Origin: an uncultured Pelagibacteraceae bacterium
GTDB lineage: Bacteria > Pseudomonadota > Alphaproteobacteria > Pelagibacterales > Pelagibacteraceae
Assembly (NCBI GenBank): GCA_902521615.1
Contig: CABYSJ010000001.1
Location: forward strand, 124,732-188,731
Reading direction: 5' to 3'
Length of the DNA stretch: 64,000 nt
Positions 1 to 63,454 of the stretch are shown here, in pieces. Numbering within the stretch: position 1 is the first letter of the stretch; every line of letters begins with the position of its first letter. The notes below the pieces were generated by a model. It worked only from the letters and a program-made list of their open reading frames with translations. It did not search any database and had not been told where the DNA came from. Made by a program: the position numbers and the translations under genes.

Positions 1-2050
1 TTGCCTCAATGTTTTGTGAATTTTCAAACAGTACCGGCAGAGTAGACTGAGCGCTAAATGCTGCAGCATAATTTCCACCTATAAAATCATTTCCGTCTTT
101 TGGTCCAACTTTCCCTTTCTCAAAGCCTCTTAACATTTTTGAAGATAAAAAAAGTCTTTCTGATAGTTTAATATCATCTCCACTTATAGAATTTGCACTC
201 TCAAGAAAAATAGATAAACTACTAATATTATTTTCATATAATGAGGTAAATTTTTTAAAATTATATGAATTTGTTAAAGTATTAGTGTCACTAATTAATG
301 GCAGATCTATTTTATATGTTGATCTAAAGCCATCGTCTGTTCTAAATTTCTGATTACGTTTATCATAATCAAAACTTGTAGCTATAAATGTATCCCAATA
401 GTCCCCTTCTTGTGATTTTTGTCTAGCCGATGCCGTTGAGTCAGTGTCTATTTTCTCATAATATGATCTAGTCGACATACCCAAATAAAAATCTTCGTAA
501 TATTCGAATCGAGTTCCAACATCAAAACCTGTTTTATTAGTTTTATATCCATTAGTATCCATTCGGTTAATCTCAATTGCCTCTATATTTGTATATAGTG
601 ATTTATCAGAGTTATTAAAATTTGGATTTATTACACCAAAAGATCCTTTAAAAGATTCGGAATTGATCGTAGCTGAAACATTAACACCAAGACCTTTACC
701 TAGATAATTATTTTCCCTAACACCAAATTGAAAAACACCACCTGCGGTTCCAAAACCTGCACCTGCTGAAATTTCACCAGTAGGTTTTTCTTTAACAGTT
801 ATATTAACAATTTTAGAGTTTTGATTTTCTCCATCAACAATTTCTGTAGATATTTCTTTAAAAAAATTTAAACTCTTAAGATTATTTTCACTTTTCTTTT
901 GTAGTATTTGATTATAAGGGTCGCCCTCATCAATTTCTAAATTATTTCGAATTACACTTTCTCTTGTAATATTGTTTCCAAAAATATTAATTTTTTCTAC
1001 AAAATACTTCTCTGTTTCCTCAATATTAAATATCATATTAAGCTTTCCTTCTGCAATCGTTTCCTCAACATTTGCTTTAATAGATTTAAATTCTTCATTA
1101 AGTGTAATAAAATCTAATCTTTTTAAAATTTTATTTACTGTATTTATTGAATAGGGTTCGCCTTTTAGTTCTTTAAATAAAATATTTAGACTTTCAAAAT
1201 TATCAATTTCAAAATCATTTGGTATATTCAAAGATAAATTATTAAAAAAAATTTTTTCCTTAGGATTTATATTAAATATTAACTCAAATTCCTCATCGTT
1301 AATTAATCTTGCAAAAGAAGTATTTATTTCCGCATTATAGTAACCTTTATTTAAATAAAAGTTTTTAAGCAGTCTTTGATCTAGTTCTATGGTTTGCTCG
1401 TTGAGATATTTTCTCCCTGAAATTAATTTCCAAAACTTATATTCCTCACTTACAATTAAACTTCTTAATTTACTTTCTTTGTATATTTTATCACCAATGA
1501 AAGAAATTTTTCTTATTTTTGCTTTTGATCCTAATTCAATAATATGATCAACATTTACAAGATTGTTATCAAGATTTTTAACTACTGTTTCAACCTCAGC
1601 AAAATAATAACCTATAGATTTAAGATAAGACTTGATTAAATCTCTATCATTAGAAACTTGAAAATCATTATAGGAAGATCGAGATTTTAATGAAACAGTA
1701 TTCCTTAGAGCTTTTCTGATTTTTTCAGCCTTGATACCAACAAATTCTATTTTATCAATTATAGGTGATTCAGTTACTTTAATGACTAAATCATTTTCAT
1801 TTAAATTCACAGAGACATTTGAGAAAAAATTTGTTTCATACAAATTCTTTAGGATATCATTCAATATTTCTGTAGTTACATCATCTCCAAGTTCTACTTC
1901 AGAAAATATTTTTATAGTTTCTATAGAAATTCTATCATTGCCCTGGACTATTATTTTTTTAACTTCTTTAGCGTTAGAAACAGAAATCAGAAAAAAAATT
2001 ATTAAAGATAATGTTAGTGAAAAATATTTTAATATTTTTGATTTTATCAT
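1..2050 (-). CDS. bamA: Outer membrane protein assembly factor BamA, partial (3' end runs off the window start; not in the ORF track)
   Basis: Manual translation from ATG at 2050: signal peptide MIKSKILKYFSLTLSLIIFF, POTRA motifs (VQGNDRIS, IFGNNITRESVIR) and barrel entry KEKPTGEISAGAGFG. Sits downstream of dxr as expected. Confidence 0.93.
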   Translation of the reverse strand, partial: MIKSKILKYFSLTLSLIIFFLISVSNAKEVKKIIVQGNDRISIETIKIFSEVELGDDVTTEILNDILKNLYETNFFSNVSVNLNENDLVIKVTESPIIDKIEFVGIKAEKIRKALRNTVSLKSRSSYNDFQVSNDRDLIKSYLKSIGYYFAEVETVVKNLDNNLVNVDHIIELGSKAKIRKISFIGDKIYKESKLRSLIVSEEYKFWKLISGRKYLNEQTIELDQRLLKNFYLNKGYYNAEINTSFARLINDEEFELIFNINPKEKIFFNNLSLNIPNDFEIDNFESLNILFKELKGEPYSINTVNKILKRLDFITLNEEFKSIKANVEETIAEGKLNMIFNIEETEKYFVEKINIFGNNITRESVIRNNLEIDEGDPYNQILQKKSENNLKSLNFFKEISTEIVDGENQNSKIVNITVKEKPTGEISAGAGFGTAGGVFQFGVRENNYLGKGLGVNVSATINSESFKGSFGVINPNFNNSDKSLYTNIEAIEINRMDTNGYKTNKTGFDVGTRFEYYEDFYLGMSTRSYYEKIDTDSTASARQKSQEGDYWDTFIATSFDYDKRNQKFRTDDGFRSTYKIDLPLISDTNTLTNSYNFKKFTSLYENNISSLSIFLESANSISGDDIKLSERLFLSSKMLRGFEKGKVGPKDGNDFIGGNYAAAFSAQSTLPVLFENSQNIEA

Positions 2051-2052
2051 TG

Positions 2053-3210
2053 TTAAAATTTTGAGTTAATCTTTGACCTTACATATTTATTAAGCGTCAA
2101 TATATCAGTAATTTTGTTTGGTTCTATTAGTTTGTACTTATAAAATTCTTTTTTAGAAACAAAATTTCTTAGTTTTGTTAATAATTCAGTGTATGAAATT
2201 TTGCTCTTTAAATACTGATTAACATATTCATCATTTGCTGAAACCAGAACAGTTTCAAATAGAGAGTCCTTTAGTGGTAGTTTTTTTATTAAATTAACTA
2301 GAGGAAATTTTTTATTATCAATTTTTTTAAAGTTTAAATTATTTAAAATCTTAAAATTTATTTTTTTGGTGTTTTTAATATTCATTCTGCCAAATTTAAA
2401 AGTATTAAATATTGGAATTTCCATAGTGGTTTCATGAGCAATTAATTTAATAATTCCATCATTAAATTTGATTATAGCATGAATATATGATTTTGGATGA
2501 ACTATAATAGAAATATTTTTATAATTAACATTAAATAATTTTTTAGCCTCTATAACTTCAAACACTTTGTTCATCATTGTAGATGAATCAACGCTTATTT
2601 TTTTTCCCATGGACCAGTTTGGATGTTTGATAATTTGTTTTATGCTTAACTTATTAAATTTTTTTTGGGATATTTTTAATAATGGTCCTCCTGAAGCTGT
2701 AATAAAAATTTGATCTATATTAGAGTGTTGATTTTTAATTCCATACCAAATTGAAAAATGTTCAGAGTCTACAGGAACAAATTCAGTATTATATTTTTTA
2801 ATTTCAGCATAAATTAAATTCCATGCACATATAATTGCCTCTTTATTTGCAATTGCAATTTTTTTTGTAAATTTGATGATATCCATAGTAGGTTTAAGTC
2901 CATTGATCCCAATTATTGAGCTCATTGTATAATCTACTTTTGTAGTAAAAATTTTTTTAAATGAATCAAAGTTACGATAGATTTTTAGTTTTTTATTTTT
3001 ATTGTACTTTTTAAATTTATTATAACTATTTTCGTTATTAATAATCACATTTTTAACTTTAAATTGTTTAGTTTGATTTAATAACTCATTATAATTTTTG
3101 TTTGCCGTTAGAAGAAAAATTTCAATATTTCTTTTATCTGATGAAATAATTTTTAGTAAAGATTTACCAATTGATCCTGTTGATCCTAAAATAGCAATTT
3201 TTTTTTTCAT
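2053..3210 (-). CDS. dxr: 1-deoxy-D-xylulose 5-phosphate reductoisomerase
   Basis: ILGSTGSIG, IANKE, PVDSEH, HPNWSMGKKISVDSSTMMNK motifs. Confidence 0.97.
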   Translation of the reverse strand: MKKKIAILGSTGSIGKSLLKIISSDKRNIEIFLLTANKNYNELLNQTKQFKVKNVIINNENSYNKFKKYNKNKKLKIYRNFDSFKKIFTTKVDYTMSSIIGINGLKPTMDIIKFTKKIAIANKEAIICAWNLIYAEIKKYNTEFVPVDSEHFSIWYGIKNQHSNIDQIFITASGGPLLKISQKKFNKLSIKQIIKHPNWSMGKKISVDSSTMMNKVFEVIEAKKLFNVNYKNISIIVHPKSYIHAIIKFNDGIIKLIAHETTMEIPIFNTFKFGRMNIKNTKKINFKILNNLNFKKIDNKKFPLVNLIKKLPLKDSLFETVLVSANDEYVNQYLKSKISYTELLTKLRNFVSKKEFYKYKLIEPNKITDILTLNKYVRSKINSKF

Positions 3211-3870
3211 TTAAAAATATTGAAATGTATTCATTTTAAAAGTTAAATATGCAAATGGATAGGCAAAAATCATTCCATCAATTCTATCAAGTAAACCACC
3301 ATGCCCTGGTATAATTTTTCCTGTATCTTTTATTTTTGATAATCTTTTAAAATAAGAAATAATAATATCACCTAATTGACTAACCGTAGAAATCAGCAAA
3401 ATAAATAAAAAAATATCAAATGTTATTTTTATAGGTTCGTTTAAAAAATAATTAGAATTTAAAACTAAATTAAAAAAAATAATTGATAACAAGTACCCAC
3501 CTATTGCACCTGAAAAAGTTTTTTTTGGACTAATCTTGGTTAATTTTGGTCCTTTAAAAATCTTGCCAAAGAAATATCCACCAATATCAGTAGAAATACA
3601 AATTAATAGAATAATTATAAAATACTCATAACCATCAGACATGTGTGTCCTTATTTCATATGCTGAATAAAAAGAAAAAAATAGAAAGATTAATCCTAAT
3701 AAATAATAGGATTTTCTCCTACTCATCTTATGCCATTCATATGATGTTATAAAAAAACAAATTAGTATAAAAAAATTAAATAAAAAATTACCCTTAATAA
3801 CAAAAAATATAGCTAAAGGTATTAATATCAATGAGCTTAATATTCTTTTAGTTACTTCTTTGTTAATCAT
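3211..3870 (-). CDS. cdsA: Phosphatidate cytidylyltransferase
   Basis: STDIGGYFFG, ISPKKT, PGHGGLLDRIDG motifs; hydrophobic. Confidence 0.96.
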   Translation of the reverse strand: MINKEVTKRILSSLILIPLAIFFVIKGNFLFNFFILICFFITSYEWHKMSRRKSYYLLGLIFLFFSFYSAYEIRTHMSDGYEYFIIILLICISTDIGGYFFGKIFKGPKLTKISPKKTFSGAIGGYLLSIIFFNLVLNSNYFLNEPIKITFDIFLFILLISTVSQLGDIIISYFKRLSKIKDTGKIIPGHGGLLDRIDGMIFAYPFAYLTFKMNTFQYF

Positions 3871-4541
3871 ATTTTACCAAAGTTTCTTTTAATATTTCTG
3901 TATTCTTTTATTATTCTATTATAGTCTTTTGAATTAAAAGCAGGCCATAACTTTTTTTCAAAAAAAATTTCAGAATAAGCTAGTTGCCACAGTAAAAAGT
4001 TACTGAGTCTTTTAGTATTACCTGTTCTTATTAATAAATCAGGATCAGGCATATTTTGTGTTTGTAAGTTTTTTATTATATTTTTTTCATTTATATTTAT
4101 GTTCTTAATCTTTATTCTTTTAAATGCGCCAATTAATTCAGATTTAGACCCGTAATTTAAAGCAAGATTAATTTGCAATCTTGAGTTCTTTGAGGTTTTT
4201 TTTTCACAATTATTTAATAACTTATTAAGTCTAGGTGAAAATTTTTTTGAACCTAAAATTTTTAATTTAATATTTTTTTTATGAAGGTCTTCAATTTTAT
4301 TTATTAAAAAATTTTCTAATAAATTAAATAAATAATTCACTTCTTTTTTTGGTCTTTTCCAATTTTCAGTTGAAAATGCAAATAGAGTTAAAAATTTTAT
4401 TTTATTTTTAATTGTTTCTCTAATAATTTTTTCTACTGACTTTAATCCTGCTTTGTGACCTGCATTTCTTGATTTCTTATATTTTATACCCCATCTTCCA
4501 TTACCATCCATGATAATGGCTACATGATTTAATGGGTTCAT
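3867..4541 (-). CDS. uppS: Undecaprenyl diphosphate synthase
   Basis: HVAIIMDGNGRW, FAFSTENWKRP, LLIRTG, RLSNFLLWQLAYSE. Confidence 0.97.
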   Translation of the reverse strand: MNPLNHVAIIMDGNGRWGIKYKKSRNAGHKAGLKSVEKIIRETIKNKIKFLTLFAFSTENWKRPKKEVNYLFNLLENFLINKIEDLHKKNIKLKILGSKKFSPRLNKLLNNCEKKTSKNSRLQINLALNYGSKSELIGAFKRIKIKNININEKNIIKNLQTQNMPDPDLLIRTGNTKRLSNFLLWQLAYSEIFFEKKLWPAFNSKDYNRIIKEYRNIKRNFGKI

Positions 4542-5089
4542 ATCGTCATTATTTCTTTTTCTTTGGAAGAAACTTTTTCGTCAACTGATTTGATATGTTC
4601 ATCTGTAATTATTTGAACTTTTTTTTCATGAGATTTTTCTTCATCTTCTCCTATATCTTTTGATTTAAGAAGTTTTTTTAAATCTTCATTAGCTTCTCTT
4701 CTAATATTTCTTATAGATACTTTGCATTTCTCACCAATAGATTTTATCAATTTTTTAAGCTCATTTCTTCTTTCTTCATTTAGTTCTGGGACTGGCAGTC
4801 TTACTAGTTGTCCATCAATTTGAGGGTTTAATCCTAAATCTGATTTTTTTATAGCAGCATCTACTAACGGGACGTTATTTGAGTCCCAAACCTGAATATT
4901 GATTGTTCTTGGTTCTGGAGTTGTAATACTGCCAATCTGATTAATTGGCATTTGTTGACCGTAAACATCTACTTTTACCAAGTCGAGCATTGAAGCGTTC
5001 GCTCTACCAGTTCTTAATGAAGATAGCTCTTTAGAGAAAACCTCAATGGCTTTATCCATTTTAAGGCTGTATGATTTCTCATCAAACAT
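4538..5089 (-). CDS. frr: Ribosome recycling factor
   Basis: LRTGRANASMLD, GLNPQIDG, LNEERRNEL, IRNIRREAN. Confidence 0.97.
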   Translation of the reverse strand: MFDEKSYSLKMDKAIEVFSKELSSLRTGRANASMLDLVKVDVYGQQMPINQIGSITTPEPRTINIQVWDSNNVPLVDAAIKKSDLGLNPQIDGQLVRLPVPELNEERRNELKKLIKSIGEKCKVSIRNIRREANEDLKKLLKSKDIGEDEEKSHEKKVQIITDEHIKSVDEKVSSKEKEIMTI

Positions 5090-53377: not shown

Positions 53378-54544
53378 ATGGAAATTCCAAAAAGCTTTTT
53401 AGGTTATAAAAGAGAAAACGGCAGAGCCGGAACAAGAAATCATGTAATTATTTTGCCAGTTGATGACATTTCAAACGCATGTGCAGAGGCAGTTGCAAAT
53501 AACATTAAAGGCACAATTGCTCTTCCTCATTCTTACGGAAGACTTCAGTTTGGTGCAGATTTAGAGCTTCATTTTAGAACAATGATAGGGACTGGATGTA
53601 ATCCAAACGTTGCAGCAGTAATTGTTATTGGTATTGAACCGAAATGGACAAAGAAAATTGTAGATGGAATTGCTAAAACTGGAAAACCTGTTGAAGGATT
53701 TCATATTGAGCGTACAGGTGACATTGGTACGACAATGAAAGCATCAAAAAAAGCACAAGAATTTGTGATGTGGGCTTCAGAAAAACAAAGAGAGGAATGT
53801 CCTTTAAGTGATTTATGGATCTCAGTTAAGTGTGGAGAATCAGATACTACTTCAGGATTAGCTGCAAACCCAACTGTTGGAAACTTAATGGACAAACTTG
53901 AGCCATTAGGTGTTCACTTATGTTTTGGTGAAACATCTGAATTAACTGGTGCAGAACAAGTTTGTGCAACTAGAGGGGCTACTAAAGAAGCTTCTGAAAA
54001 ATTTATGAAAACTTGGAGCTCTTATAATGATTTTATTTTAAAAGAAGCAACGGATGATCTTTCTGAAAGTCAACCAACAGCTGGAAATATAGCTGGAGGA
54101 CTTACAACAATTGAAGAAAAAGCTTTTGGTAATTTTCAAAAAATTGGAAATTGTAAATTTATTGATGTTCTTGAGCCAGCTGAAGAACCAACTAAAGGAA
54201 AAGGTTTATATTTTATGGACACATCATCTGCTGCTGCAGAATGTGTGACGCTTCAAGCTGCTGCTGGTTTTAATATTCATTTATTTCCAACTGGACAAGG
54301 TAATATCGTTGGAAATCCAATTGAACCTGTTGTTAAATTAACAGCTAATCCATTAACTGTAAAAGGTATGGGAGAGCATATTGATTGTGATGTTTCAAAA
54401 ATTCTTTCAAGAGAAATGAATTTATCTGAAGCAGGTGATGAATTAATTAAAACGACACTTAGAGTAGCAAACGGTAGATTAACTTGTGCTGAAGCTTTGG
54501 GTCATAAAGAATTTGTTATGACTAAACTTTACAGAAGTGCTTAA
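53378..54544 (+). CDS. suyB: (2R)-sulfolactate sulfo-lyase beta subunit
   Basis: [46 protein letters not shown], terminal TKLYRSA. Confidence 0.9.
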
Positions 54545-54560: not shown

Positions 54561-55628
54561 ATGAATATTAAAAAATACCTGGTTGTATTACCAGGTATTA
54601 TATTGGCATTTGTTCTTTACACTTTATCTCAAGGTTTCAATAATATTCTTGGTATTGAACTATTAGGCTATGAAAAAAGTCCAATATCTACTGCAATGAT
54701 AGCTATTTTATTAGGAATGTTTTTCGGAAATATTTTTCAAATAAGAGAAATTTTTTTAAAAGGATTAGATTTTACACAAAAATATATTCTTAAACTAGGT
54801 ATTATTTGTCTAGGTATTCAATTGAAGCCATTTGAATTTTTAGAATTCGGAAAAATAGCAATTCCATTAATTATAATCTGTATAATCAGTGTGTTAATAG
54901 TAATTAAAGTTCTTATTAAAAGATTAAAAATACCAACAAGAATGGCTTACTTGATATCAATAGGGAGTACTGTCTGTGGTACTACTGCAATTATGGCTAC
55001 TGCTCCTGTCATCGGTGCAAAAAAAAACGAGGTGTCGTATGCAATTGCTAATATTACATTGTTTGGAATACTTTCGATGCTTATTTATCCTTATTTTGCT
55101 AACTTTTATTTTGAAAGTGAGCCTTTACTAATTGGATTGTTTTTAGGAACCTCAATCCATGAAACCTCTCAAGTTGCAGCTGCAGGATTGATTTATGATC
55201 AGCAGTTTAATAGTCCTGAAACTTTAAATATCGCAACAGTAACGAAATTAATAAGGAATACCTTTTTGATTATCATGATCCCTTTATTTGCATTTCTTTA
55301 TAATCGAGGAAAAACTACAGAAAAGAAATACTCAATAATAGATATTTTTCCTTACTTTGTATTAGGATTTGTAGCAATGATAATAATTAGAAATTTAGGT
55401 GATCTAATGTATTCAAATAATTACGAATGGTTGGTTATAATTGAGGGTATTAAATTGTCCTCAAAAATATTTTTAACAATGGCAATGGCAGCAATAGGGC
55501 TTTCAACTAACTTAAAAGAACTTAAAAATATGGGCTACAAACCTTTTATAGTTGGTTTTATAGGTATGGCAACGGTAGGATTGTTTAGTATTACAACTAT
55601 CGAATTATATTTAAATTTTTTTAATTAA
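54561..55628 (+). CDS. YeiH / putative sulfate exporter family (SuyZ-like)
   Basis: VCGTTAIMA, GTSIHETSQV, TKLIRN, AMAAIGL; directly follows suyB. Confidence 0.88.
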   Translation: MNIKKYLVVLPGIILAFVLYTLSQGFNNILGIELLGYEKSPISTAMIAILLGMFFGNIFQIREIFLKGLDFTQKYILKLGIICLGIQLKPFEFLEFGKIAIPLIIICIISVLIVIKVLIKRLKIPTRMAYLISIGSTVCGTTAIMATAPVIGAKKNEVSYAIANITLFGILSMLIYPYFANFYFESEPLLIGLFLGTSIHETSQVAAAGLIYDQQFNSPETLNIATVTKLIRNTFLIIMIPLFAFLYNRGKTTEKKYSIIDIFPYFVLGFVAMIIIRNLGDLMYSNNYEWLVIIEGIKLSSKIFLTMAMAAIGLSTNLKELKNMGYKPFIVGFIGMATVGLFSITTIELYLNFFN

Positions 55629-56704
55629 GATTTGACTAATAATTTTTTTCTAAAGTTTGAAATAAATCGTCTTATAAAAGCTGCTCCAACACCTAAAGTA
55701 ATTGCAAACATAATTGTAAATAGCCCATAAAAGAAAGGCATTTCTTTAGAAAAATCAATTATAAATTGAGAAAAGAAATTTAAATCTGAACTAGTTGCTT
55801 TAGCAGTTCCATTTATAATTTTGTCTGCAAAAAACGTGTCGTATGCTATCGCTATACCTACTATCAGTAATAAAATTGCTAATAAGGCTCTTAAACCGGA
55901 ACTATCGATTCTTTCTCCTAATTTTTGCCCAACCTGAACTCCTATTATAGATCCTACAACTAACATAAGAACTAGAAATAAATCTATAGACCCGTAATTA
56001 AATGAATGAAGAAAAGTAACAACCACACTTACAAAAATTGTTACAAATAAAGATGTACCAGGAACTAATTTAGTAGGCATTTTAATTATATAAATCATAG
56101 CAGGAACTAAAATAAAAGCACCTCCGATCCCCATAATGGCTGCAATAAATCCAACTAATAAACCAATTATAATTGGTGTAAAAATACTCTCATATAATTT
56201 TGACTTTGGAAATCTCATTCTTAATGGAAGACCATGTATCCAATAATGAACATGTAATTTTTTTTTAACTACAACGTTTCTTTTTGCTTTATCTATTTCA
56301 CCCAAACTCTCAACCAACATTAAAGTTCCGATTATTGCCAATATATACATATAAGCTAGAGAGATAACCGTATCAATTTTTCCGATACCTTTAAAATATG
56401 TAAAAGTGTAAATTCCTAAAGAAGTTCCAATTACACCTCCAATTACAATCATTGAACCCATTTTATAATCTAAAGTATTTTTTAAATAATGCGTAGTAGA
56501 TCCAGAAACTGAAGTAGCTAAGATATTATTTGCTTCATTTGCAACAGCGTATGCAGGAGGTATTCCTAAAAAAATTAAAAAAGGTGTCATCAAAAACCCA
56601 CCACCAACACCAAATAAACCTGAAAGTACTCCAACAATTGCGCTTAATAAAAGTATTTCGATAGGGTTAACAAAAACTTGAGCTATCGGTAAAAATACTT
56701 CCAT
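55625..56704 (-). CDS. TauE/SafE (TSUP) sulfite exporter family with C-terminal extension
   Basis: GLFGVGGGFLMTP, MGIGGAFILVP, GSIIGVQVG. Confidence 0.88.
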   Translation of the reverse strand: MEVFLPIAQVFVNPIEILLLSAIVGVLSGLFGVGGGFLMTPFLIFLGIPPAYAVANEANNILATSVSGSTTHYLKNTLDYKMGSMIVIGGVIGTSLGIYTFTYFKGIGKIDTVISLAYMYILAIIGTLMLVESLGEIDKAKRNVVVKKKLHVHYWIHGLPLRMRFPKSKLYESIFTPIIIGLLVGFIAAIMGIGGAFILVPAMIYIIKMPTKLVPGTSLFVTIFVSVVVTFLHSFNYGSIDLFLVLMLVVGSIIGVQVGQKLGERIDSSGLRALLAILLLIVGIAIAYDTFFADKIINGTAKATSSDLNFFSQFIIDFSKEMPFFYGLFTIMFAITLGVGAAFIRRFISNFRKKLLVKS

Positions 56705-56937: not shown

Positions 56938-57288
56938 CTAGTAGATGGTAGCCCCAAAAACTTTAATTGTATCGTCCTCAACTCCTAACACCAACCTTCC
57001 AAGGAACTCTCCTGGGATCTCTTTATTTGTCTGTTTGATCAAAACAGTTATGTGATCTCCTCTTCTTAGGCATCCAAAAGGTTCGAAAGTCTCTTTAAGA
57101 TTAGTGATAAGCTTATTATTAGCCCACTGTTTACCAAGTTCTACTTCGTTAGCACCAAAAAGCATTTGGGTAGAGAAATCTCTAGTAAACCCTCCATAAT
57201 CTTTTAGATTAGATGATTTAACCAAGTTATCCCAAATAGGTTTGGCTAATTCATATATTTCATCATCTGATTTAGATAAAATATCCAT
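56938..57288 (-). CDS. Hypothetical protein downstream of aprA
   Basis: 116 aa, clean start and stop, 21 nt after the aprA stop. Confidence 0.8.
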   Translation of the reverse strand: MDILSKSDDEIYELAKPIWDNLVKSSNLKDYGGFTRDFSTQMLFGANEVELGKQWANNKLITNLKETFEPFGCLRRGDHITVLIKQTNKEIPGEFLGRLVLGVEDDTIKVFGATIY

Positions 57289-57309: not shown

Positions 57310-59169
57310 CTACGAAGCTTTTTTCTTTTCGTTCTCATCCACTATATGGTAGACAGGAACTTTCTCCATACTAAACTTGCCAGTTTTAGGGTCACGTCTA
57401 GAAACTGTTAGACAATGCCAATTTTCATCATCAAGCTTCATATGATCACCTCTATAATAGTAGCCTGGCCACCTAGTCTCTTCTCTAAATAAAGTATGTT
57501 CCGTTACACACTGAGAAGTCAAAGCTCTATGTTTCAACTCCCAAGCTCTCATAAGCTGGTGATAATCTTCAGCTCCAACATGCTCCAAGTCCTCTTGTAG
57601 CCAATCTAATAACTCAAGTCCTCTTTTCAGCATATTACCATTAGTCATGTAATTTGAGGTAATTCCACCCACGTATTCATCCATGATTTTCTGTAATCTT
57701 TGAAGACCTTGGATTGGAGATATATAGCTAGGAGAAACTGTTCCACCAGTAATCTCATTTCTAGCAACTGTGTAGTTTTCTAGTGGTTTGTAAACTGCAC
57801 TTTTGAAATCCTCACACTGTTTATCTGAAACTTTAACCCCCTCGGCTTTTTTGTCTTCAATGTATTTAACAGCAGCTTTTGCAGCTAATCTACCCTCTGT
57901 AAAAGATCCAGAGGAAAACTTATGGGCACTTCCACCAACTGTATCTCCTGCACCAAATAAACCATCAATAGTTAGCATTCTGTTATAACCCCAAAAATAT
58001 TCTGGTGGTGATAAATCCTCAGGGCCGCTCACCCATGCGCCAGAACAAGTAGCATGTGAACCCATTACATAAGGTTCAGATGTAGTTAATTCTGGATTTG
58101 TGTATTTTGGATCAATATTTTGAGATGCCCAAACAACAGCTTGACCAACAGTCATTCCTAAAAAATTTTCCCAACCTACTGTTTCTAAATGCGGATCTTG
58201 GAAAGCCTCAGTAGTTACCATATGGATTGGTCCACCGCCTGCGGCTACTTCCTGAATAAACGCATGATTTCTCAAACAAGTTGGTGTTGGATGATGATCA
58301 ATGTATTCACCAACTAATTCTTTAGTTTGGTCATACCATTTTTTCTCATAGTTTTCACCATTTGCATTTTGTGTGTATGTTTTTAAATGAAGGAAATATG
58401 CTCCAACTGGTCCATATCCATCTTTAAATCTACATAATACAATTCTGTTTTCCATTTGAGTCATCTTTGCACCTGCTGCAATAGGCAATGCATATGCAGA
58501 TCCATTACTCCATGGTGCATACCAAGTTCTACCCATTCCTTCTCCAACCGCTCTTGGTTTAAAGATGTGTGAAGCTCCACCAGCAGCAACAATTACTGCT
58601 TTTGCTCTAAATACATGAAAATCACCTGTTCTCATATTAAACCCAACTGCTCCACCAATTCTATTGCCTTGAGACTCGTCCATTAAAAGATGAGTAATCA
58701 TTATTCTGTTATAAATTTTATCTGCAGATTTTTTTGCTGCCTCTGCTACAATCGGTTTGTAACTTTCACCATGGATCATAATCTGCCATTTTCCCTCTCT
58801 TAAGTATCTTCCAGTTTCTTCGTTCTTCATCATAGGTAAGCCCCATTCATCAAACATATGAACTGTAGAGTCTACGTGACGAGCCATGTCATAACCTAAA
58901 TCTTCTCTTACCATTCCCATTAAATCATTTCTTGCATATCTAACATGATCTTCTGGTTGGTTTTCACCCCACTGCATTCCCATGTAACAGTTAATCGCAT
59001 AAAGTCCCTGAGCAACAGCTCCACTTCTATCAATGTTAGCTTTTTCAACACAAACAATTTTCATGTCTCTACCCCAGTGTCTTGCTTCAAAGGTAGCACC
59101 AGTACCGGCCATACCTCCACCAACAACTAATATATCACAATCTTCGTAATGAGTTTTATGACTAGCCAT
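57310..59169 (-). CDS. aprA: Adenylylsulfate reductase alpha subunit
   Basis: EKANIDRSGAVAQGL, WQIMIHGESYKP, WYAPWSNGSAY, RFKDGYGPVGA, HKFSSGS. Confidence 0.97.
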   Translation of the reverse strand: MASHKTHYEDCDILVVGGGMAGTGATFEARHWGRDMKIVCVEKANIDRSGAVAQGLYAINCYMGMQWGENQPEDHVRYARNDLMGMVREDLGYDMARHVDSTVHMFDEWGLPMMKNEETGRYLREGKWQIMIHGESYKPIVAEAAKKSADKIYNRIMITHLLMDESQGNRIGGAVGFNMRTGDFHVFRAKAVIVAAGGASHIFKPRAVGEGMGRTWYAPWSNGSAYALPIAAGAKMTQMENRIVLCRFKDGYGPVGAYFLHLKTYTQNANGENYEKKWYDQTKELVGEYIDHHPTPTCLRNHAFIQEVAAGGGPIHMVTTEAFQDPHLETVGWENFLGMTVGQAVVWASQNIDPKYTNPELTTSEPYVMGSHATCSGAWVSGPEDLSPPEYFWGYNRMLTIDGLFGAGDTVGGSAHKFSSGSFTEGRLAAKAAVKYIEDKKAEGVKVSDKQCEDFKSAVYKPLENYTVARNEITGGTVSPSYISPIQGLQRLQKIMDEYVGGITSNYMTNGNMLKRGLELLDWLQEDLEHVGAEDYHQLMRAWELKHRALTSQCVTEHTLFREETRWPGYYYRGDHMKLDDENWHCLTVSRRDPKTGKFSMEKVPVYHIVDENEKKKAS

Positions 59170-59639
59170 TAATAATAAACTCCTTTTTTAAAGGACTCCT
59201 TAGGAACACTCGGAAGCTCTCCATCTATATTTAAACCTTCTGGTTCAGTATATAATCTTTGTGAATTTATCTCTCCTTGATTAGGTTTGTCCCCATCTGC
59301 TAATTTTGGAATAAATTTTCCCCAAGGCTTAGTTGTAATTGGAGATACGAAATTTTTTTCAGTTCCATTTCTAAATTTAATTTTCCAAGAGATTGTTCCT
59401 TTTTCTTCTTCCCTTCTTACCCTAACGCTGTGTCCCATTGGAGCAAAGTCTGCATATCCTCTAACATCAATAGCGTGGTTAGGACAAGCTTTGACACAAG
59501 AATAACATTCCCAACAAAAGTTAGGTTCTATATTTTTTGCACGTCTAATGTTTTCATCAATGTGCATTATATCTGATGGGCAAATATCTACACAATGACC
59601 ACAGCCATCACATCTTGTCATATATACAAATGTTGACAT
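59169..59639 (-). CDS. aprB: Adenylylsulfate reductase beta subunit
   Basis: CDGCGHCVDICPSDIM, CWECYSCVKACP; SD AAGGAGAGAG. Confidence 0.97.
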   Translation of the reverse strand: MSTFVYMTRCDGCGHCVDICPSDIMHIDENIRRAKNIEPNFCWECYSCVKACPNHAIDVRGYADFAPMGHSVRVRREEEKGTISWKIKFRNGTEKNFVSPITTKPWGKFIPKLADGDKPNQGEINSQRLYTEPEGLNIDGELPSVPKESFKKGVYY

Positions 59640-59672
59640 ATTATTCTCTCTCCTTTTTAAATTTTATCATAA

Positions 59673-60473
59673 TTAATAATGTTTAGGTTGTTCTCTTTTA
59701 ATACCCAAACCAAATTGTTCAGGTGCATCAGCAGGTGGTGGTAAATTATCTCTTGAACCATCTGCTTCAGCTAAATTCTTTTGTATTGCTGCGCCAGGTT
59801 TATAAAACATGTGTGCAAACTTAGACCAATAAACTCCTCCAAATAAAACTAGGTTTGAAACCACAAATAATACTAAAAATAAATTTGCATCCCATCTTCC
59901 TTCTAAATTTAAACCTTGAAGATATGACCAAATAAATCCGGTTAAGGAAGTTGCAATCAGAGCTAATACAAATAAATCTGCTTTAATAATTCTGTACCAA
60001 GGTTGCGCTTCAGAATAAACATCAACTCTTAAGAAGAACCAAAACCATGATCCACCCAAGATCGTCATCAAAGCACCAATATGCCAAATCATTGGCCAAA
60101 TAGCCGGAGTTTCTGAATTTGCTGATGAATAACAAAATATCATCACAACAGAGCCAACCCAAAACAATATAGTACCGTACATTCCAAGAACATGTGCTAC
60201 TCTTCTTTTACCAGCCCCTAATTCTGATGTAGTTCCGATGTCGTATGCAATTGTTTTTGAAACAACTGCAATTCTTTCACCAGTTGACAGTTCTTTGGTC
60301 GCATTTTTTTTTGCTTTCTTGGCATTTTCAAAAAAGTATTTCACATTCTTTTTATGAATTATGTCTAAAAGAGTTCCTCCAACAATTAATAAAACCATTA
60401 ACACCACAAAACCTTGCATAACTATAGATGGAACTGTTTCAGCTAGAATTGAAAAAGGATTTGTTGCAAACAT
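59673..60473 (-). CDS. aprM: Adenylylsulfate reductase membrane anchor
   Basis: Multi-TM protein before aprB; RRVAHVLGMYG, WSKFAHMFYKPGAA, EADGSRDNLP. Confidence 0.9.
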   Translation of the reverse strand: MFATNPFSILAETVPSIVMQGFVVLMVLLIVGGTLLDIIHKKNVKYFFENAKKAKKNATKELSTGERIAVVSKTIAYDIGTTSELGAGKRRVAHVLGMYGTILFWVGSVVMIFCYSSANSETPAIWPMIWHIGALMTILGGSWFWFFLRVDVYSEAQPWYRIIKADLFVLALIATSLTGFIWSYLQGLNLEGRWDANLFLVLFVVSNLVLFGGVYWSKFAHMFYKPGAAIQKNLAEADGSRDNLPPPADAPEQFGLGIKREQPKHY

Positions 60474-60578
60474 TTTTAATACACTTGTAAAATAAAATTG
60501 AATTAATTTAAGGTTTTCTATTCTAGAAATTTATATAGTTCAACCAAAAGTATTGGTCAATTTGTCTTTAATAACAAC

Positions 60579-60977
60579 TCAGAGTTTACGTTTGTAGTGT
60601 TGTTTGTTGGGAATCACTGACCTAACACCGCCCTGAGGATTCTCGACATCCCCTTTTCTTCTTGGAATTAAATGAATGTGGCAATGCATAATTGATTGTC
60701 CTGCAGATTTTCCTGCATTTGTGCCTATATTAAAACCTTTAACACTAGAATCTTGTTTTAAAATTTTTTCTTTAGTTTTTAAAATTAACTCGTTACATGC
60801 CTGAATTTCTTCTTTAGTAAGCTCAAAGTATGTCTCTACATGTCTTTTAGGAACGATAAGACTATGAAATTCTGAGACTGGATAGCTATCTATGGATGAG
60901 TAAGCCAATTGATTTTCAAACTGCAGCTCTTCTTTTCTAATTTTGCAAAATATACAAGGGTTGTTTGGATCTCTCAT
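60579..60977 (-). CDS. HIT family nucleotide hydrolase/transferase
   Basis: CIFC, YPVSEFHSLIVPKRH, GFNIG.NAGKSAGQ, HCHIH histidine triad. Confidence 0.93.
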   Translation of the reverse strand: MRDPNNPCIFCKIRKEELQFENQLAYSSIDSYPVSEFHSLIVPKRHVETYFELTKEEIQACNELILKTKEKILKQDSSVKGFNIGTNAGKSAGQSIMHCHIHLIPRRKGDVENPQGGVRSVIPNKQHYKRKL

Positions 60978-61723
60978 GTTTTAACAAGAGAATTGTATAT
61001 TTTATTTAAATTAGTGTAGCAACCAGTCTTTCTTCTCTTCCATTTAAGATCATTTATTTTTGAAACTGATGTTACTCCTTTACCAGATCCAATAAGAATT
61101 ATTTCATCATAATCATTAATAGATTCAATAGAAATATCTTTAAAATTAATTTTAATTTTCTTGCTTATAAATTTAAGCGTGTTTCCAATATAACAATTTT
61201 TTTTAGGTGAAAAAATTTTTCCCTTTTTCACAAAAACTAAATTTGAAGTACCAGTTTCTAAAATTTTATCATTAGCGACTAGAGCAATATCAAATTTAGT
61301 TGAGTCAACTTTACTTAATTTTGCTAATATTTTTTTATAATAGAGATTTTTATAATTTGGTTCTACTCTTTTATATCTAAATAATAACAGATTAAAATTA
61401 CTCTTTGGTTTTGGTCTTTTTCTAATTGAGACTGATATCAGTTTTTTATTTAAAGCTATACGAAATAAATTATCAGGACCTTTGTATAGAGTATTTTTGT
61501 CAATTAAATCTTTAATAATGCTTTTTAAATTTTTTTTTCTTATTCCATATTTTTTTGTAGATTTTATTAAGTTCTCTAAATGCGGTTTTAAAAGTATTAA
61601 CTTAGGAGGTTTTCCAACCATTCGCATTGTAGTGAATACACCTCTAGATCCCCAAAGATCATTGAAATTAACTTCTTTAAGATTACTAAGCTGATAAGAT
61701 TTTTTTAATAAGAGTGTTGCCAT
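60974..61723 (-). CDS. pabC: Aminotransferase class IV, probable aminodeoxychorismate lyase
   Basis: GVFTTMR, NYKNLYY (PLP Lys), ILETGTSNL; follows pabA/pabB. Confidence 0.72.
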   Translation of the reverse strand: MATLLLKKSYQLSNLKEVNFNDLWGSRGVFTTMRMVGKPPKLILLKPHLENLIKSTKKYGIRKKNLKSIIKDLIDKNTLYKGPDNLFRIALNKKLISVSIRKRPKPKSNFNLLLFRYKRVEPNYKNLYYKKILAKLSKVDSTKFDIALVANDKILETGTSNLVFVKKGKIFSPKKNCYIGNTLKFISKKIKINFKDISIESINDYDEIILIGSGKGVTSVSKINDLKWKRRKTGCYTNLNKIYNSLVKT

Positions 61724-62243
61724 TTTCTGTTAAAAAAGATTCTGGATGAAATTGAAATCCATATATTTTATTTTGATTATCTTCAAGGCCCATAGGTATT
61801 TTTGTTTTACTACATCTCATAGTTATTTTAATTGAAGTCGATTTGAATGGCTCCATTAATTTTAATGAATGATATCTACCAACTTTAAATTGTTGATTAT
61901 TTTTAAAGATTTTACTTTGATTATTTATTTTTATTTTGGATTGAAATCCATGATATATTCTTTTTTGCTGTATGATTTTACCTCCTTCATTATACAAAAT
62001 CATTTGATAACCAAGACAAATACCAATAATTTTTTTCTTTCCTTTATATTTTTTATAAATTTTCGATGTTATTGGATAATCTTTTGGTGATCCAGGTCCT
62101 GGTGATAAAACGATCGCATCACTTTTATCAAGCGATTTATCATTTACTTCATAATAGTTTGCACAAATTACTTTATCAAATTTTGCAAATTGATGAACCA
62201 CATTCCAAGTAAAAGAGTCTTGATGATCAATTATGTAAATCAT
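61686..62243 (-). CDS. pabA: Glutamine amidotransferase component (PabA/TrpG)
   Basis: IDHQDSFTWN, LSPGPG, GICLG, GRYHSL, FQFHPES. Confidence 0.85.
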   Translation of the reverse strand: MIYIIDHQDSFTWNVVHQFAKFDKVICANYYEVNDKSLDKSDAIVLSPGPGSPKDYPITSKIYKKYKGKKKIIGICLGYQMILYNEGGKIIQQKRIYHGFQSKIKINNQSKIFKNNQQFKVGRYHSLKLMEPFKSTSIKITMRCSKTKIPMGLEDNQNKIYGFQFHPESFLTENGNTLIKKILSA

Positions 62244-63454
62244 TTAAATAACTCCAGTAAAGATTTTGCTTTAATATAATTTTCATTGAACTCTTTCTTT
62301 GGTGAGCTATCTAATACTACTCCAGATGCAGCAGATATCTCTGATTGATTTTTATAATTTAATATAGATCTAATAATAATATTAAACTTCATATCTTGAT
62401 TAAATTTAATAAATCCAAAACTACCTGTAAAAATATTTCTACTTTCTTTTTCTTGATTATTTAAAAGTTCTAATGTTCTAATTTTAGGGCAACCAATTAC
62501 GGATCCTCCCGGCATCATTGCTTTAATGATATCAATCAATTTTGTATTTTTATTTATTATTCCACCTATTGAAGTCACATAATGAAAAAGATGCTTGTAT
62601 TCCTCAACATATTTTTTTTTGATTATTTTAACACTTCCAGGTTTACAAATTTTAGATAAATCACTTCTTTCCATATCAACTATCATGTTGTGTTCTTTGG
62701 TTTCTTTCTCATTATTTTTAAAATATTTAAGAGCTATATTTTTATTAGAAGAGTATTTTTTCTTAAATGTACCAGCAATTGGTTTTGTAATTATTTTGTT
62801 TTTTTTCTTATCTATCAATGTTTCTGGGGAGCAACTTACTATAGAATAATCCTTGTCTTTTATCATAAATGACTCTGGGGAAGCATTAACACGCATTAAT
62901 TTCCAAAAAAAATTAATAGGATTAATTAATGATTTATTCTCATATTTTGTACAAATTTTTATTTGATAAGTCTCACCTTGTCTTATTTTTTTTGAAAATA
63001 ATTCAAATATTTTTTTATATTTTTCATAAGAAATATTAATCTTAAAGGGACTTAATATTTGAGTTTTGCTGAATTGATAATTGAAAGTATGTTTTTTTAT
63101 ATTAGATATAACTTTAATATCTTTTCTAATTTTAATTATCGTCTCAGGTTTATAAAAAACCCCTTTATAAAAATTTATCCTTTTTTTATTTTTTAAATTA
63201 ATACCAATTAAATTACATAAAATTTCGTAACCAAAAAAACCAAGATATAAATCTGTTTCTTTTTTGTATTTTTTATTCTCTAATGAGTTAAGAAAATTAT
63301 GTATATTTTTTTTTGTTAAAACAATTTTTTTTGAAAAATCAGTGTAAATATTATACCCGTTATCTACTTTATAAATAATTAAAGGTTTATCTGATTGATA
63401 CAGATCCTCTAGATAAGGGTTAAATTTAAACTTATGCTGGTTGAGTTCTTTCAA
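62240..63454 (-). CDS. pabB: Chorismate-binding enzyme, probable aminodeoxychorismate synthase component I (TTG start)
   Basis: GETYQIK, SCSPE, KPIAGT, EHNMIVDMERSDL, PGGSVIGCPKIR. Confidence 0.82.
   Translation of the reverse strand: MKELNQHKFKFNPYLEDLYQSDKPLIIYKVDNGYNIYTDFSKKIVLTKKNIHNFLNSLENKKYKKETDLYLGFFGYEILCNLIGINLKNKKRINFYKGVFYKPETIIKIRKDIKVISNIKKHTFNYQFSKTQILSPFKINISYEKYKKIFELFSKKIRQGETYQIKICTKYENKSLINPINFFWKLMRVNASPESFMIKDKDYSIVSCSPETLIDKKKNKIITKPIAGTFKKKYSSNKNIALKYFKNNEKETKEHNMIVDMERSDLSKICKPGSVKIIKKKYVEEYKHLFHYVTSIGGIINKNTKLIDIIKAMMPGGSVIGCPKIRTLELLNNQEKESRNIFTGSFGFIKFNQDMKFNIIIRSILNYKNQSEISAASGVVLDSSPKKEFNENYIKAKSLLELFK

What the first reader, a model, noticed from the sequence alone, without database searches (positions are those of the whole stretch)
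57310..60977. aprMBA without sat, but with a HIT protein directly upstream: possible alternative APS exit
Oxidative AprAB makes APS from sulfite and AMP and needs a way to remove it; sat normally sits beside aprMBA but is not here. The gene just upstream encodes an HxHxH HIT protein. HIT-superfamily members are known to act on APS: Hint and Fhit hydrolyse it, and APS:phosphate adenylyltransferase is GalT/HIT-related. This protein could regenerate AMP or form ADP, giving a Sat-free sulfite detoxification or energy cycle. Caveats: it overlaps the pabC stop by 4 nt, lies 105 nt from aprM, and this HIT subtype also occurs in unrelated contexts.
Basis: inference. Interest (0 to 1): 0.65.

Follow-up and report, generated by a model that had tools for sequence, protein, structure and literature searches.

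The report
HIT gene beside SAR11 APS reductase
A small HIT-family nucleotide hydrolase gene sits just upstream of the sulfite-oxidising APS reductase genes in a SAR11-type marine bacterium that lacks ATP sulfurylase; relatives of this HIT recur beside such reductase genes in other bacteria, so a link to APS is plausible, but it is barely expressed, often absent and not a stand-in for ATP sulfurylase.

Summary
On the minus strand lie pabB-pabA-pabC-HIT-aprM-aprB-aprA. HIT overlaps the pabC stop by 4 nt and ends 105 nt before aprM. No sat, cysDN, cysC or cysH was found in the 92%-complete genome. Sat-less aprBA in SAR11 is already published.

For it:
- This HIT subfamily (HxHxHxIPR...GGVR tail) is strongly enriched in genomes with AprM-type apr clusters (5/10 vs 6/390; 15/50 in a second set).
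- It lies 1-2 kb downstream of such clusters in several gammaproteobacteria.
- It was recruited separately in two SAR11 genera.
- It is under strong purifying selection (dN/dS 0.08).

Against it as a Sat substitute:
- All non-SAR11 carriers tested also have Sat.
- Many Sat-less apr+ Pelagibacterales lack the HIT.
- aprMBA appears to have its own promoter, and six metatranscriptomes show HIT and pabABC about 100-fold below aprM.
- The SAR11 HIT descends from the C-terminal domain of HNH-HIT restriction-like proteins.

A better candidate for the APS exit emerged: an APS-kinase-like plus HxGH adenylyltransferase-like gene pair. It tracks apr across the order, abuts the cluster in two lineages, and is well expressed. 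An NTF2-like 116-aa gene is the universal fourth apr gene.

The parts
60579..60977 (-). Stand-alone HIT protein, 132 aa. It has a CxxC N-terminus, a HCHIHLIPRRKGD triad and a C-terminal NPQGGVRSVIP tail.
   Evidence: PF01230 65 bits and phrog_19494 109 bits. The AF2 model has pLDDT 90.8; its best folds are Bacillus Hit, the Rv2613c Ap4A phosphorylase and Fhit. dN/dS is 0.08. In the tree it is nested among HNH-HIT fusions.
60532..60560 (-). Promoter-like element TTGACC-17 nt-TATATA in the HIT-aprM spacer. Predicted only.
   Evidence: Read from the sequence. TTGACC-17-TATAAA is also present upstream of aprM in G007 and in genus g5. Metatranscriptome depth falls to about 0 just upstream of the aprM start.
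59673..60473 (-). AprM-like membrane anchor, 266 aa.
   Evidence: Weak QmoC C-terminal hit. Conserved upstream of aprB in all loci examined.
59169..59639 (-). AprB, the APS reductase beta subunit.
   Evidence: TIGR02060 187.7 bits and PF12139.
57310..59169 (-). AprA, the APS reductase alpha subunit.
   Evidence: TIGR02061 992 bits.
56938..57288 (-). 116-aa NTF2-like protein of unknown function. It is the universal fourth gene of AprM-type apr clusters.
   Evidence: No Pfam, NCBIfam or PDB sequence hit. AF2 pLDDT is 92, with NTF2-like fold matches at TM about 0.6. It lies downstream of aprA in all SAR11 loci and in 78 of 80 non-SAR11 loci.
55625..56704 (-). TauE/SafE-family (sulfite exporter family) membrane protein.
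   Evidence: PF01925 154 bits.
54561..55628 (+). YeiH-type (PF03601) membrane protein. It occupies a variable slot that holds the HIT in genus g5.
   Evidence: PF03601 228 bits; synteny.
53378..54544 (+). Altronate/galactarate-dehydratase-family large subunit. I infer it is SuyB-like (sulfolactate sulfo-lyase); this was not tested.
   Evidence: PF20629 and PF04295. In g5 the HIT follows it by 2 nt.
60974..61723 (-). pabC-like class IV aminotransferase-fold gene. Its stop overlaps the HIT start.
   Evidence: PF01063 78.6 bits; weak PabC family hits.
61686..63454 (-). pabA (61686-62243) and pabB (62240-63454).
   Evidence: PF00117 and TIGR00566; PF00425 and TIGR00553-like.

Best explanation
The gene encodes an active Fhit/Hit-like HIT nucleotide hydrolase, or possibly a phosphorylase. 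In Pelagibacter it acts as a low-abundance, dispensable accessory to the APS-producing AprMBA system. I infer that it removes APS, or an APS-derived adenylate such as AMP-NH2, and returns AMP.

It is not part of the aprMBA transcription unit. It is not the replacement for Sat.

On its origin: it is the freed C-terminal domain of an HNH-HIT restriction-like gene that landed between pabC and aprM in an ancestor of the genus, and it has since been kept under strong purifying selection.

Shown: its position, conservation, phylogeny, expression contrast with aprMBA, and enrichment with AprM-type apr clusters. Inferred: the substrate and the physiological role.
For: 1. Intact catalytic motif and a confident HIT fold. 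dN/dS is 0.08, against 0.16 for pabC and aprM.
2. The subfamily is present in 5 of 10 Pseudomonadota genomes with AprM-type apr plus the NTF2 gene. It is present in 6 of 390 genomes without that cluster, and in 0 of 37 genomes with other aprA types (Fisher p = 1e-6 and 2e-4). In a second set it is in 15 of 50 genomes.
3. It sits 1-2 kb downstream in the same-strand array aprMBA-NTF2-p179-TPR-HIT in loci L118 and L123. It also lies near the cluster in L133, L095 (Thiococcus pfennigii) and L137, where it is paired with a GalT/APAT-like gene.
4. The tree places the gammaproteobacterial apr-linked HITs, the SAR11 g1 HIT and the SAR11 g5 HIT in different clades. That implies at least four separate recruitments.
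5. Fhit-type HITs have documented adenylylsulfate sulfohydrolase activity (PMC4613722).
6. In SAR11 the HIT stays inside the sulfite island in two different arrangements.
Against: - No biochemical data exist for this subfamily.
- Transcripts are about 100-fold rarer than aprM in six metatranscriptomes. This rests on contig depth, which is a crude measure.
- The HIT shares ancestry and low expression with pabABC rather than with aprM. There is a 4-nt overlap with pabC. There is a recombination break between HIT and aprM: HIT is 95-96% identical but aprM only 69% in G059, G077, G171 and G164. In G159 a sulfur-gene insert separates HIT from aprM.
- Its closest relatives are domains of nuclease fusions found next to R-M genes or integrases.
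- Stand-alone members in other apr+ genomes often sit in unrelated contexts.
- The enrichment counts are inflated by related genomes.
Confidence: 0.4

Rival explanations
1. The HIT is unrelated to sulfur metabolism. It is a domesticated or residual domain of a mobile HNH-HIT restriction-like gene, or a generic nucleotide housekeeping enzyme. It sits beside apr only because the sulfite island has permissive intergenic slots.
For: - The full-length 331-aa HNH-HIT occupies the same pabC|aprM slot in G196 and is sister to all stand-alone slot HITs.
- Paralogues 50-60% identical lie next to a C5-MTase plus an NgoFVII-like REase, or next to an integrase.
- Most close representatives in the 50%-identity-clustered protein library are 170-340-aa fusions.
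- The best profile hit is a phage family, phrog_19494.
- The slot is empty in G105, G111, G167 and G186, and is variable in g5.
- Expression is very low.
Against: - Strong purifying selection across about 100 species of a streamlined genome.
- Stand-alone members are enriched specifically in AprM-type apr genomes, and insertion next to apr has recurred in unrelated lineages.
- In the 201 Pelagibacterales sampled, a stand-alone copy was never found outside apr+ genomes.
Confidence: 0.3
2. One reading: the HIT is the principal Sat-free exit for APS in SAR11. It hydrolyses APS to AMP plus sulfate, or phosphorolyses it to ADP.
For: - The own genome has no Sat, CysDN, CysC (E. coli type), CysH or GalT-like APAT.
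- The HIT is adjacent to aprM in more than 95% of apr+ species of the genus.
- The HIT-apr association exists elsewhere.
- Its nearest structural neighbours include the Ap4A phosphorylase Rv2613c and Fhit.
Against: - Family f2 has aprMBA with neither Sat nor this HIT (13 of 13 apr+ genomes re-examined), and so do two g5 and four g1 species.
- Every non-SAR11 HIT carrier tested has Sat, and Sat+ Pelagibacter genomes keep the HIT. There is therefore no complementarity.
- Its transcript level is about 1% of aprM.
- A housekeeping Hint is present in every genome.
- The APS-kinase-like plus adenylyltransferase-like pair tracks apr better and is about 100-fold more expressed than the HIT.
Confidence: 0.15
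3. The HIT functions with the pabABC (p-aminobenzoate/folate) operon, to which it is translationally coupled.
For: 4-nt ATGA overlap with pabC. Low expression similar to pabABC. HIT co-inherits with the pab side across the recombination break.
Against: pabABC occurs without the HIT in G105, G111, G167 and G186. In g5 the HIT lies next to the suyB-like gene with no pab genes nearby. None of the other loci holding this subfamily has pab neighbours.
Confidence: 0.05

Closest known systems
Fhit and Hint4/DcpS-type HIT enzymes acting on adenosine 5'-phosphosulfate (adenylylsulfate sulfohydrolase EC 3.6.2.1; APS phosphorolysis)
   Same: Same superfamily, the same HxHxHxx nucleophile motif, and a single about 130-aa domain. 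Fhit is among the closest folds. APS hydrolysis by Fhit is documented in PMC4613722.
   Different: Sequence identity is only 21-24%. This protein carries a distinctive IPRRKGD...NPxGGVRxVIP tail. Its nearest relatives are C-terminal domains of HNH nuclease fusions. No activity has been measured.
APS:phosphate adenylyltransferase (ADP sulfurylase, APAT) of Thiobacillus denitrificans, GalT branch (from my own knowledge: Brueser et al. 2000)
   Same: It is proposed to remove APS after AprBA and can coexist with Sat. A GalT/APAT-like gene is paired with a HIT of this subfamily next to apr in the Piscirickettsiaceae MAG, locus L137.
   Different: APAT is a two-domain protein of about 360 aa with a GalT-type motif. 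The window protein is a single HxHxH domain. No GalT-like gene was found in the window's genome.
sat-aprMBA locus of Allochromatium vinosum and other Chromatiaceae (PMC3779200)
   Same: AprM-type (lineage I) aprMBA, the same cluster core as in the window.
   Different: There Sat is co-transcribed upstream of aprM. Here that position holds a weakly expressed HIT with a separate aprM promoter, and Sat is absent from the genome.
Rv2613c Ap4A phosphorylase (HIT family) of Mycobacterium tuberculosis
   Same: HIT fold with a C-terminal extension. It gives the longest structural alignment, 134 columns at TM 0.72. It uses phosphate instead of water.
   Different: NCBIfam ATP adenylyltransferase scores 53 bits against a cut-off of 290. 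Rv2613c also has an N-terminal domain that is missing here.
wH-HNH modification-dependent restriction endonucleases (PMC11037411)
   Same: The fused relatives carry an N-terminal domain that looks like a winged helix (not tested), followed by an HNH domain.
   Different: Those enzymes have no HIT domain. The window protein has lost everything except the HIT domain.

Membership tests
HIT superfamily (PF01230) | Score above Pfam's gathering threshold, and the HxHxHxx motif with the upstream conserved His | tested here: met
   65.3 bits against a cut-off of 21.5. H98, H100, H102 and H38 are invariant in the alignments.
HIT superfamily (PF01230) | HIT alpha+beta fold | tested here: met
   AF2 pLDDT 90.8. 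Foldseek matches to Hit, Fhit and Hint have E about 1e-8 and TM about 0.7.
Hint branch (purine nucleoside phosphoramidase HinT) | Equivalog-level score to the HinT models | tested here: not met
   NF007965 scores 29 bits against 206, and NF045834 scores 54 against 130. A separate canonical Hint (HLHFHLFGG) is encoded on contig C4 after hisF-hisE.
Ap4A phosphorylase / ATP adenylyltransferase | Equivalog-level score and the two-domain architecture | tested here: not met
   NF052622 scores 53 bits against a cut-off of 290. The protein is a single 132-aa domain.
GalT-type APS:phosphate adenylyltransferase | Two GalT half-domains (PF01087/PF02744), about 350 aa | tested here: not met
   No such Pfam hit for the window protein. 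tblastn with a GalT-like query finds nothing in the own genome.
APS-hydrolysing or APS-phosphorolysing enzyme (functional class) | Measured turnover of APS | not testable with these tools
   Needs an enzyme assay.
aprMBA operon member | Co-transcription with aprM-aprB-aprA | tested here: not met
   Contig depth is 100-5000 on aprM against 0-23 on HIT in six metatranscriptomes. No contig spans the spacer. A promoter-like element lies in the spacer.
Dissimilatory APS reductase AprBA (lineage I, AprM type) | AprA and AprB equivalog scores, with aprM upstream | tested here: met
   TIGR02061 992 bits against 642; TIGR02060 188 bits against 136. aprM is conserved.
ATP sulfurylase Sat (PF01747) in the genome | Any hit over the cut-off in the six-frame genome | tested here: not met
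   No hit in the own genome. The positive controls gave hits in 5 of 14 named control genomes.

The most novel reading that the evidence does not exclude
Pelagibacterales did not simply lose Sat. They replaced it with a minimal gene pair: an APS-kinase-like P-loop protein (136-165 aa) and a 124-130-aa HxGH/ISATKIR adenylyltransferase-like protein. This pair would act as a cryptic ATP-sulfurylase or PAPS-synthase analogue working downstream of AprMBA. The GGVR-tail HIT would act as an APS overflow or clean-up hydrolase, recruited repeatedly to AprM-type clusters. The NTF2-like 116-aa protein would be an unrecognised core component of all AprM-type APS reductases.
Probability: 0.3. Interest if true: 0.75.

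Novelty: new variant of a known kind. Interest (0 to 1): 0.55.

Why it matters
SAR11 is the most abundant heterotroph in the ocean, and it degrades organosulfonates that release sulfite. Its highly expressed AprMBA makes APS, yet no enzyme is known there to dispose of APS. That leaves a gap in marine sulfur-cycle models.

This work shows that the neighbouring HIT is a real but minor candidate for filling the gap. It also gives three concrete, testable leads:
- a HIT subfamily that recurs with AprM-type reductases;
- an APS-kinase-like plus adenylyltransferase-like pair that tracks apr in Sat-less lineages;
- a universal NTF2-like fourth apr gene.

Any of the three could change how sulfite oxidation through APS is annotated in thousands of genomes.

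Tried and rejected
- **Word-index protein searches.** The search for homologous proteins with the HIT and with the 116-aa ORF returned only near-identical marine metagenome copies. They gave no outgroups and no names beyond 'Ap4A HIT family hydrolase' or 'hypothetical protein'.
- **Co-absence of HIT and apr within the genus.** This looked informative but is not. The six apr-negative genomes also lack pabB or break at a contig end.
- **Complementarity between HIT and Sat.** Tested and rejected.
- **RNA elements.** Rfam found only tRNAs in the window, and no riboswitch upstream of aprM.
- **Consensus scan.** The promoter/terminator scan gave no more sites than shuffles and missed the spacer element because of its strict -10 rule.
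- **Published expression data.** The supplements of the S-limitation proteome paper hold no entry for the HIT.
- **Defence-system models.** PADLOC gives only a weak ThsC2 'HIT family' hit. I do not file the gene as a defence gene.
- **Function of the 116-aa protein.** No PDB or Pfam sequence hit, and only a generic NTF2 fold, so no function can be assigned.
- **Literature.** No paper in the library joins SAR11 with 'histidine triad', and the aprMBA papers do not mention the downstream genes.
Full report
**Anatomy**

The minus strand of window 55.6-63.5 kb carries, in order: pabB (62240-63454), pabA (61686-62243), a pabC-like class-IV aminotransferase-fold gene (60974-61723), a 132-aa HIT protein (60579-60977), an AprM-like membrane protein (59673-60473), AprB (59169-59639), AprA (57310-59169), a 116-aa ORF with no family (56938-57288) and a TauE-family protein (55625-56704). 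AprA and AprB pass the NCBIfam equivalog cut-offs. The HIT passes Pfam's cut-off and has the HCHIHLI triad. The HIT start overlaps the pabC stop (ATGA), and 105 nt separate HIT from aprM.

Notes by other first-stage readers place xsc, a TRAP transporter and other sulfonate genes in the same window. A UxaA-family, SuyB-like gene lies just beyond TauE. The region is therefore an organosulfonate and sulfite island.

**Is sat really missing?**

PF01747 finds nothing in the window's assembly, which is 1.195 Mb and 91.6% complete, while the control genomes give hits. Only 7 of 201 sampled Pelagibacterales genomes have it, and many of the negatives are closed genomes. E. coli CysC, CysD, CysH, CysI and CysJ find nothing. 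CysN hits only GTPase paralogues. A CysQ homologue lies 4 kb past the window end. A GalT/APAT-like query also finds nothing.

This gap is already in the literature. Smith et al. 2016 state that HTCC1062 lacks cysDNCHIJ, sat and phsABC, and that AprBA probably detoxifies sulfite. The AprM-type locus of Pelagibacter was described in 2008.

**HIT in Pelagibacterales**

In a 201-genome sample of the order, an orthologue of at least 60% identity is present in about 100 of 109 genomes of the same genus, g1. In 34 of 35 loci examined it lies on the same strand, about 108 nt upstream of aprM. There are several exceptions and variants.
- G105, G111, G167 and G186 have pabC directly followed by aprM.
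- G159 has a 3.2-kb insert between HIT and aprM encoding an MBL-fold (persulfide-dioxygenase-like) protein, a YeeE protein and a rhodanese.
- G196 has a full-length 331-aa HNH-HIT protein in the slot.
- In genus g5 there is no pabABC upstream of aprM. A 51%-identical HIT lies on the other side of the island, 2 nt after the SuyB-like gene, in four genomes, and is absent in two.
- The second family, f2, has aprMBA at 64-66% AprM identity but no orthologue of this HIT and no Sat.
- Genera g2-g4 have neither apr nor this HIT.
- The six apr-negative g1 genomes also lack pabB or break at a contig end, so their co-absence says nothing.

**Selection, ancestry and transcription**

HIT is under strong purifying selection. 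Median dN/dS is 0.08, against 0.16 for both pabC and aprM.

There is a recombination break between HIT and aprM. In G059, G077, G171 and G164 the HIT is 95-96% identical to the window's, but AprM is only 69% identical.

Six marine metatranscriptomes agree on expression. Summed contig depth is in the hundreds to thousands over aprA, aprB and aprM. It falls to 0-23 over HIT and pabABC. The edge is at the aprM start, and this holds at both 90% and 80% likeness. AprM and HIT are about equally conserved, so mapping bias cannot explain a 100-fold step. Contig depth remains a crude measure.

A TTGACC-17-TATATA element lies in the spacer at 60532-60560. The same TTGACC-17-TATAAA element is found upstream of aprM in G007 and in g5. 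I conclude that aprMBA, probably together with the 116-aa gene, is a separate and highly expressed unit. HIT belongs transcriptionally to the weakly expressed pab side.

**What kind of HIT is it?**

All members share GQ(S/T)IxHxHxHxIPR(R/Y)xGDxxxPxGGVRxVI.
- Its best profile hit is the unannotated phage family phrog_19494, at 109 bits.
- Streptomyces phage phiSASD1 gp4 is 43% identical and sits next to a PAPS-reductase-like gene.
- In the 50%-identity-clustered protein library, most close relatives are the C-terminal domain of 170-340-aa proteins, typically an N-terminal domain plus HNH plus HIT. Fusions to PLD/helicase, NUDIX, methyltransferase and GNAT domains also occur.
- In Pelagibacter such HNH-HIT genes lie next to a C5-methyltransferase plus an NgoFVII-like endonuclease, or next to an integrase.
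- The AF2 model is a standard HIT fold. It is closest to Bacillus Hit, the Ap4A phosphorylase Rv2613c and Fhit, and further from Hint.
- A canonical Hint is encoded elsewhere, after hisF-hisE.
- In the tree, all g1 slot HITs form one clade. The G196 full-length HNH-HIT is their sister, and HNH-HIT fusions are the next relatives. The g5 HIT is a separate lineage.

The simplest history is insertion of an HNH-HIT gene between pabC and aprM, followed by loss of the nuclease part.

**The association outside SAR11**

This result changed my reading. In a random sample of 400 Pseudomonadota, the HIT subfamily (E <= 1e-20) occurs in 11 genomes. The 116-aa gene occurs in 10, always directly after a high-scoring AprA. 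Five genomes have both, where 0.3 would be expected by chance. The four clearly stand-alone HITs are all in that group, and 0 of 37 genomes with other AprA types have the HIT (Fisher p between 1e-6 and 2e-4).

A scan of GTDB species genomes with the 116-aa protein returned 80 loci. They include Chromatiaceae, Thiobacillus denitrificans, Ca. Thiosymbion, and Rhodospirillaceae and Hyphomicrobiaceae MAGs. Of these, 78 have aprM-aprB-aprA-116aa.

In L118 and L123 the same-strand array aprMBA-116aa-p179-TPR-HIT has gaps of at most 45 nt, and HIT overlaps the TPR gene. L133, L095 (Thiococcus pfennigii), L137 and L161 also have the HIT within 2 kb. In L137 it is paired with a GalT/APAT-like gene. Fifteen of 50 of these genomes hold the HIT, ten of them within 18 kb of the cluster.

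The apr-linked gammaproteobacterial HITs fall in a different subclade (IPRY type) from the SAR11 HITs (IPRR type). The neighbourhood has therefore arisen at least four times.

Two caveats apply. Many of these genomes are related to each other. Stand-alone members in some apr+ genomes sit in unrelated contexts.

Crucially, 31 of 32 non-SAR11 apr genomes have Sat, including every HIT carrier tested. The HIT accompanies Apr; it does not replace Sat.

**A better candidate for the exit**

In all seven f2 loci, two genes converge on the 116-aa gene. One is a 164-165-aa P-loop protein whose best hits are APS kinases (PF01583 27-34 bits, above the cut-off of 21). The other is a 130-aa protein with GRWQPWHxGH and ISATKIR motifs and weak NMN-adenylyltransferase similarity.

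In g5 the 130-aa gene sits directly upstream of aprM, in the slot that holds HIT in g1. The window's own genome has the pair, overlapping by 4 nt, on contig C7:308-1089.

Across 72 chosen Pelagibacterales the 130-aa gene is distributed as follows:
- present in 13 of 13 apr+ f2 genomes and 0 of 7 apr- f2 genomes;
- absent from all 13 apr- genomes of g2, g3, g4 and g7;
- present in 6 of 6 apr+ g5 genomes;
- present in nearly all g1 genomes;
- overall, 42 of 43 apr+ genomes against 3 of 23 apr- genomes, leaving out the six apr-negative g1 assemblies.

The pair is absent from the 80 non-SAR11 apr loci. Its metatranscriptome depth is 90-520 in two of the four runs and lower (1-44) in the other two. 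In those two runs that is roughly a tenth to a third of aprM and about 100 times HIT.

The published Table 3 of Smith et al. shows cysC and aprA in exactly the same five strains. Whether the pair makes ATP, PAPS or something else is inference only.

**Verdict**

The Sat gap is known. The HIT is a real, constrained gene whose family has a genuine and previously unreported affinity for AprM-type APS reductase clusters. In SAR11 it is a peripheral, weakly expressed and dispensable accessory of nuclease-fusion ancestry, not the Sat replacement. The open question of the APS exit becomes directly testable with three named proteins.

Noticed in passing
window 56938-57288 (-): A 116-aa protein with an NTF2-like fold and no family assignment follows aprA in every AprM-type cluster examined: SAR11 families f1 and f2, and 78 of 80 loci from Chromatiaceae, Thiobacillus, Thiosymbion and Rhodospirillaceae. 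Several Arg and Lys residues are invariant. It may be an unrecognised Apr component.
   Followed up: partly
own genome contig C7:308-1089 (-), held as L175; also L030:3769-4648 and L025:6614-6970: A pair of an APS-kinase-like P-loop gene and a 124-130-aa HxGH/ISATKIR adenylyltransferase-like gene. The pair abuts the apr cluster in SAR11 family f2; in genus g5 the 130-aa gene lies directly upstream of aprM. It tracks apr across the order (42/43 vs 3/23) and is about 100-fold more expressed than the HIT. It is a candidate cryptic Sat or PAPS-synthase analogue.
   Followed up: partly
L118:2891-3430 and the homologous position in all 80 loci L084-L163: A 165-180-aa ORF with no Pfam hit follows the NTF2-like gene in 80 of 80 non-SAR11 AprM-type loci. 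It is absent from the window's genome.
   Followed up: partly
L024:7101-10140 (genome G159): A 3.2-kb insert between HIT and aprM encodes an MBL-fold (persulfide-dioxygenase-like) protein, a YeeE/YedE transporter and a rhodanese. A further sulfite-generating module has therefore landed in the same slot.
   Followed up: no
window 60474-60578 (HIT-aprM spacer) compared with G059, G077, G171 and G164: Recombination break. In these genomes HIT is 95-96% identical to the window's, but AprM is only 69% identical. The apr side and the pab-HIT side have different histories.
   Followed up: partly
L038:4452-7559, L040:3973-6200, L036:7456-8451: Three-domain proteins of about 330 aa (N-terminal domain with an IYQPxML motif, then HNH, then HIT) in Pelagibacter. 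They lie next to a C5 DNA methyltransferase plus an NgoFVII-like PLD endonuclease, or next to an integrase. This looks like an uncharacterised restriction-like architecture.
   Followed up: partly
L041:3060-4387 (Streptomyces phage phiSASD1 gp3-gp4): A phage HIT of the same subfamily, 43% identical, sits directly after a PAPS-reductase-like (AANH superfamily) gene in the replication module.
   Followed up: no
L137:1516-8973 (Piscirickettsiaceae MAG): sat-aprMBA-NTF2-p169 is followed by a convergent operon of a GalT/DUF4921/Ap4A-phosphorylase-like 364-aa gene plus the HIT. This may be an APAT-type APS exit next to apr.
   Followed up: partly
own genome C1:192787-193407 (about 4 kb beyond the window end): A CysQ-like 3'(2'),5'-bisphosphate nucleotidase homologue lies close to the sulfite island. 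This would fit a route from PAPS through PAP to AMP.
   Followed up: no
G162:C5:124907-125539: In one of the few Sat+ Pelagibacter genomes, Sat lies only about 10 kb from aprM on the same contig. All five Sat+ genomes of the genus keep the HIT.
   Followed up: no
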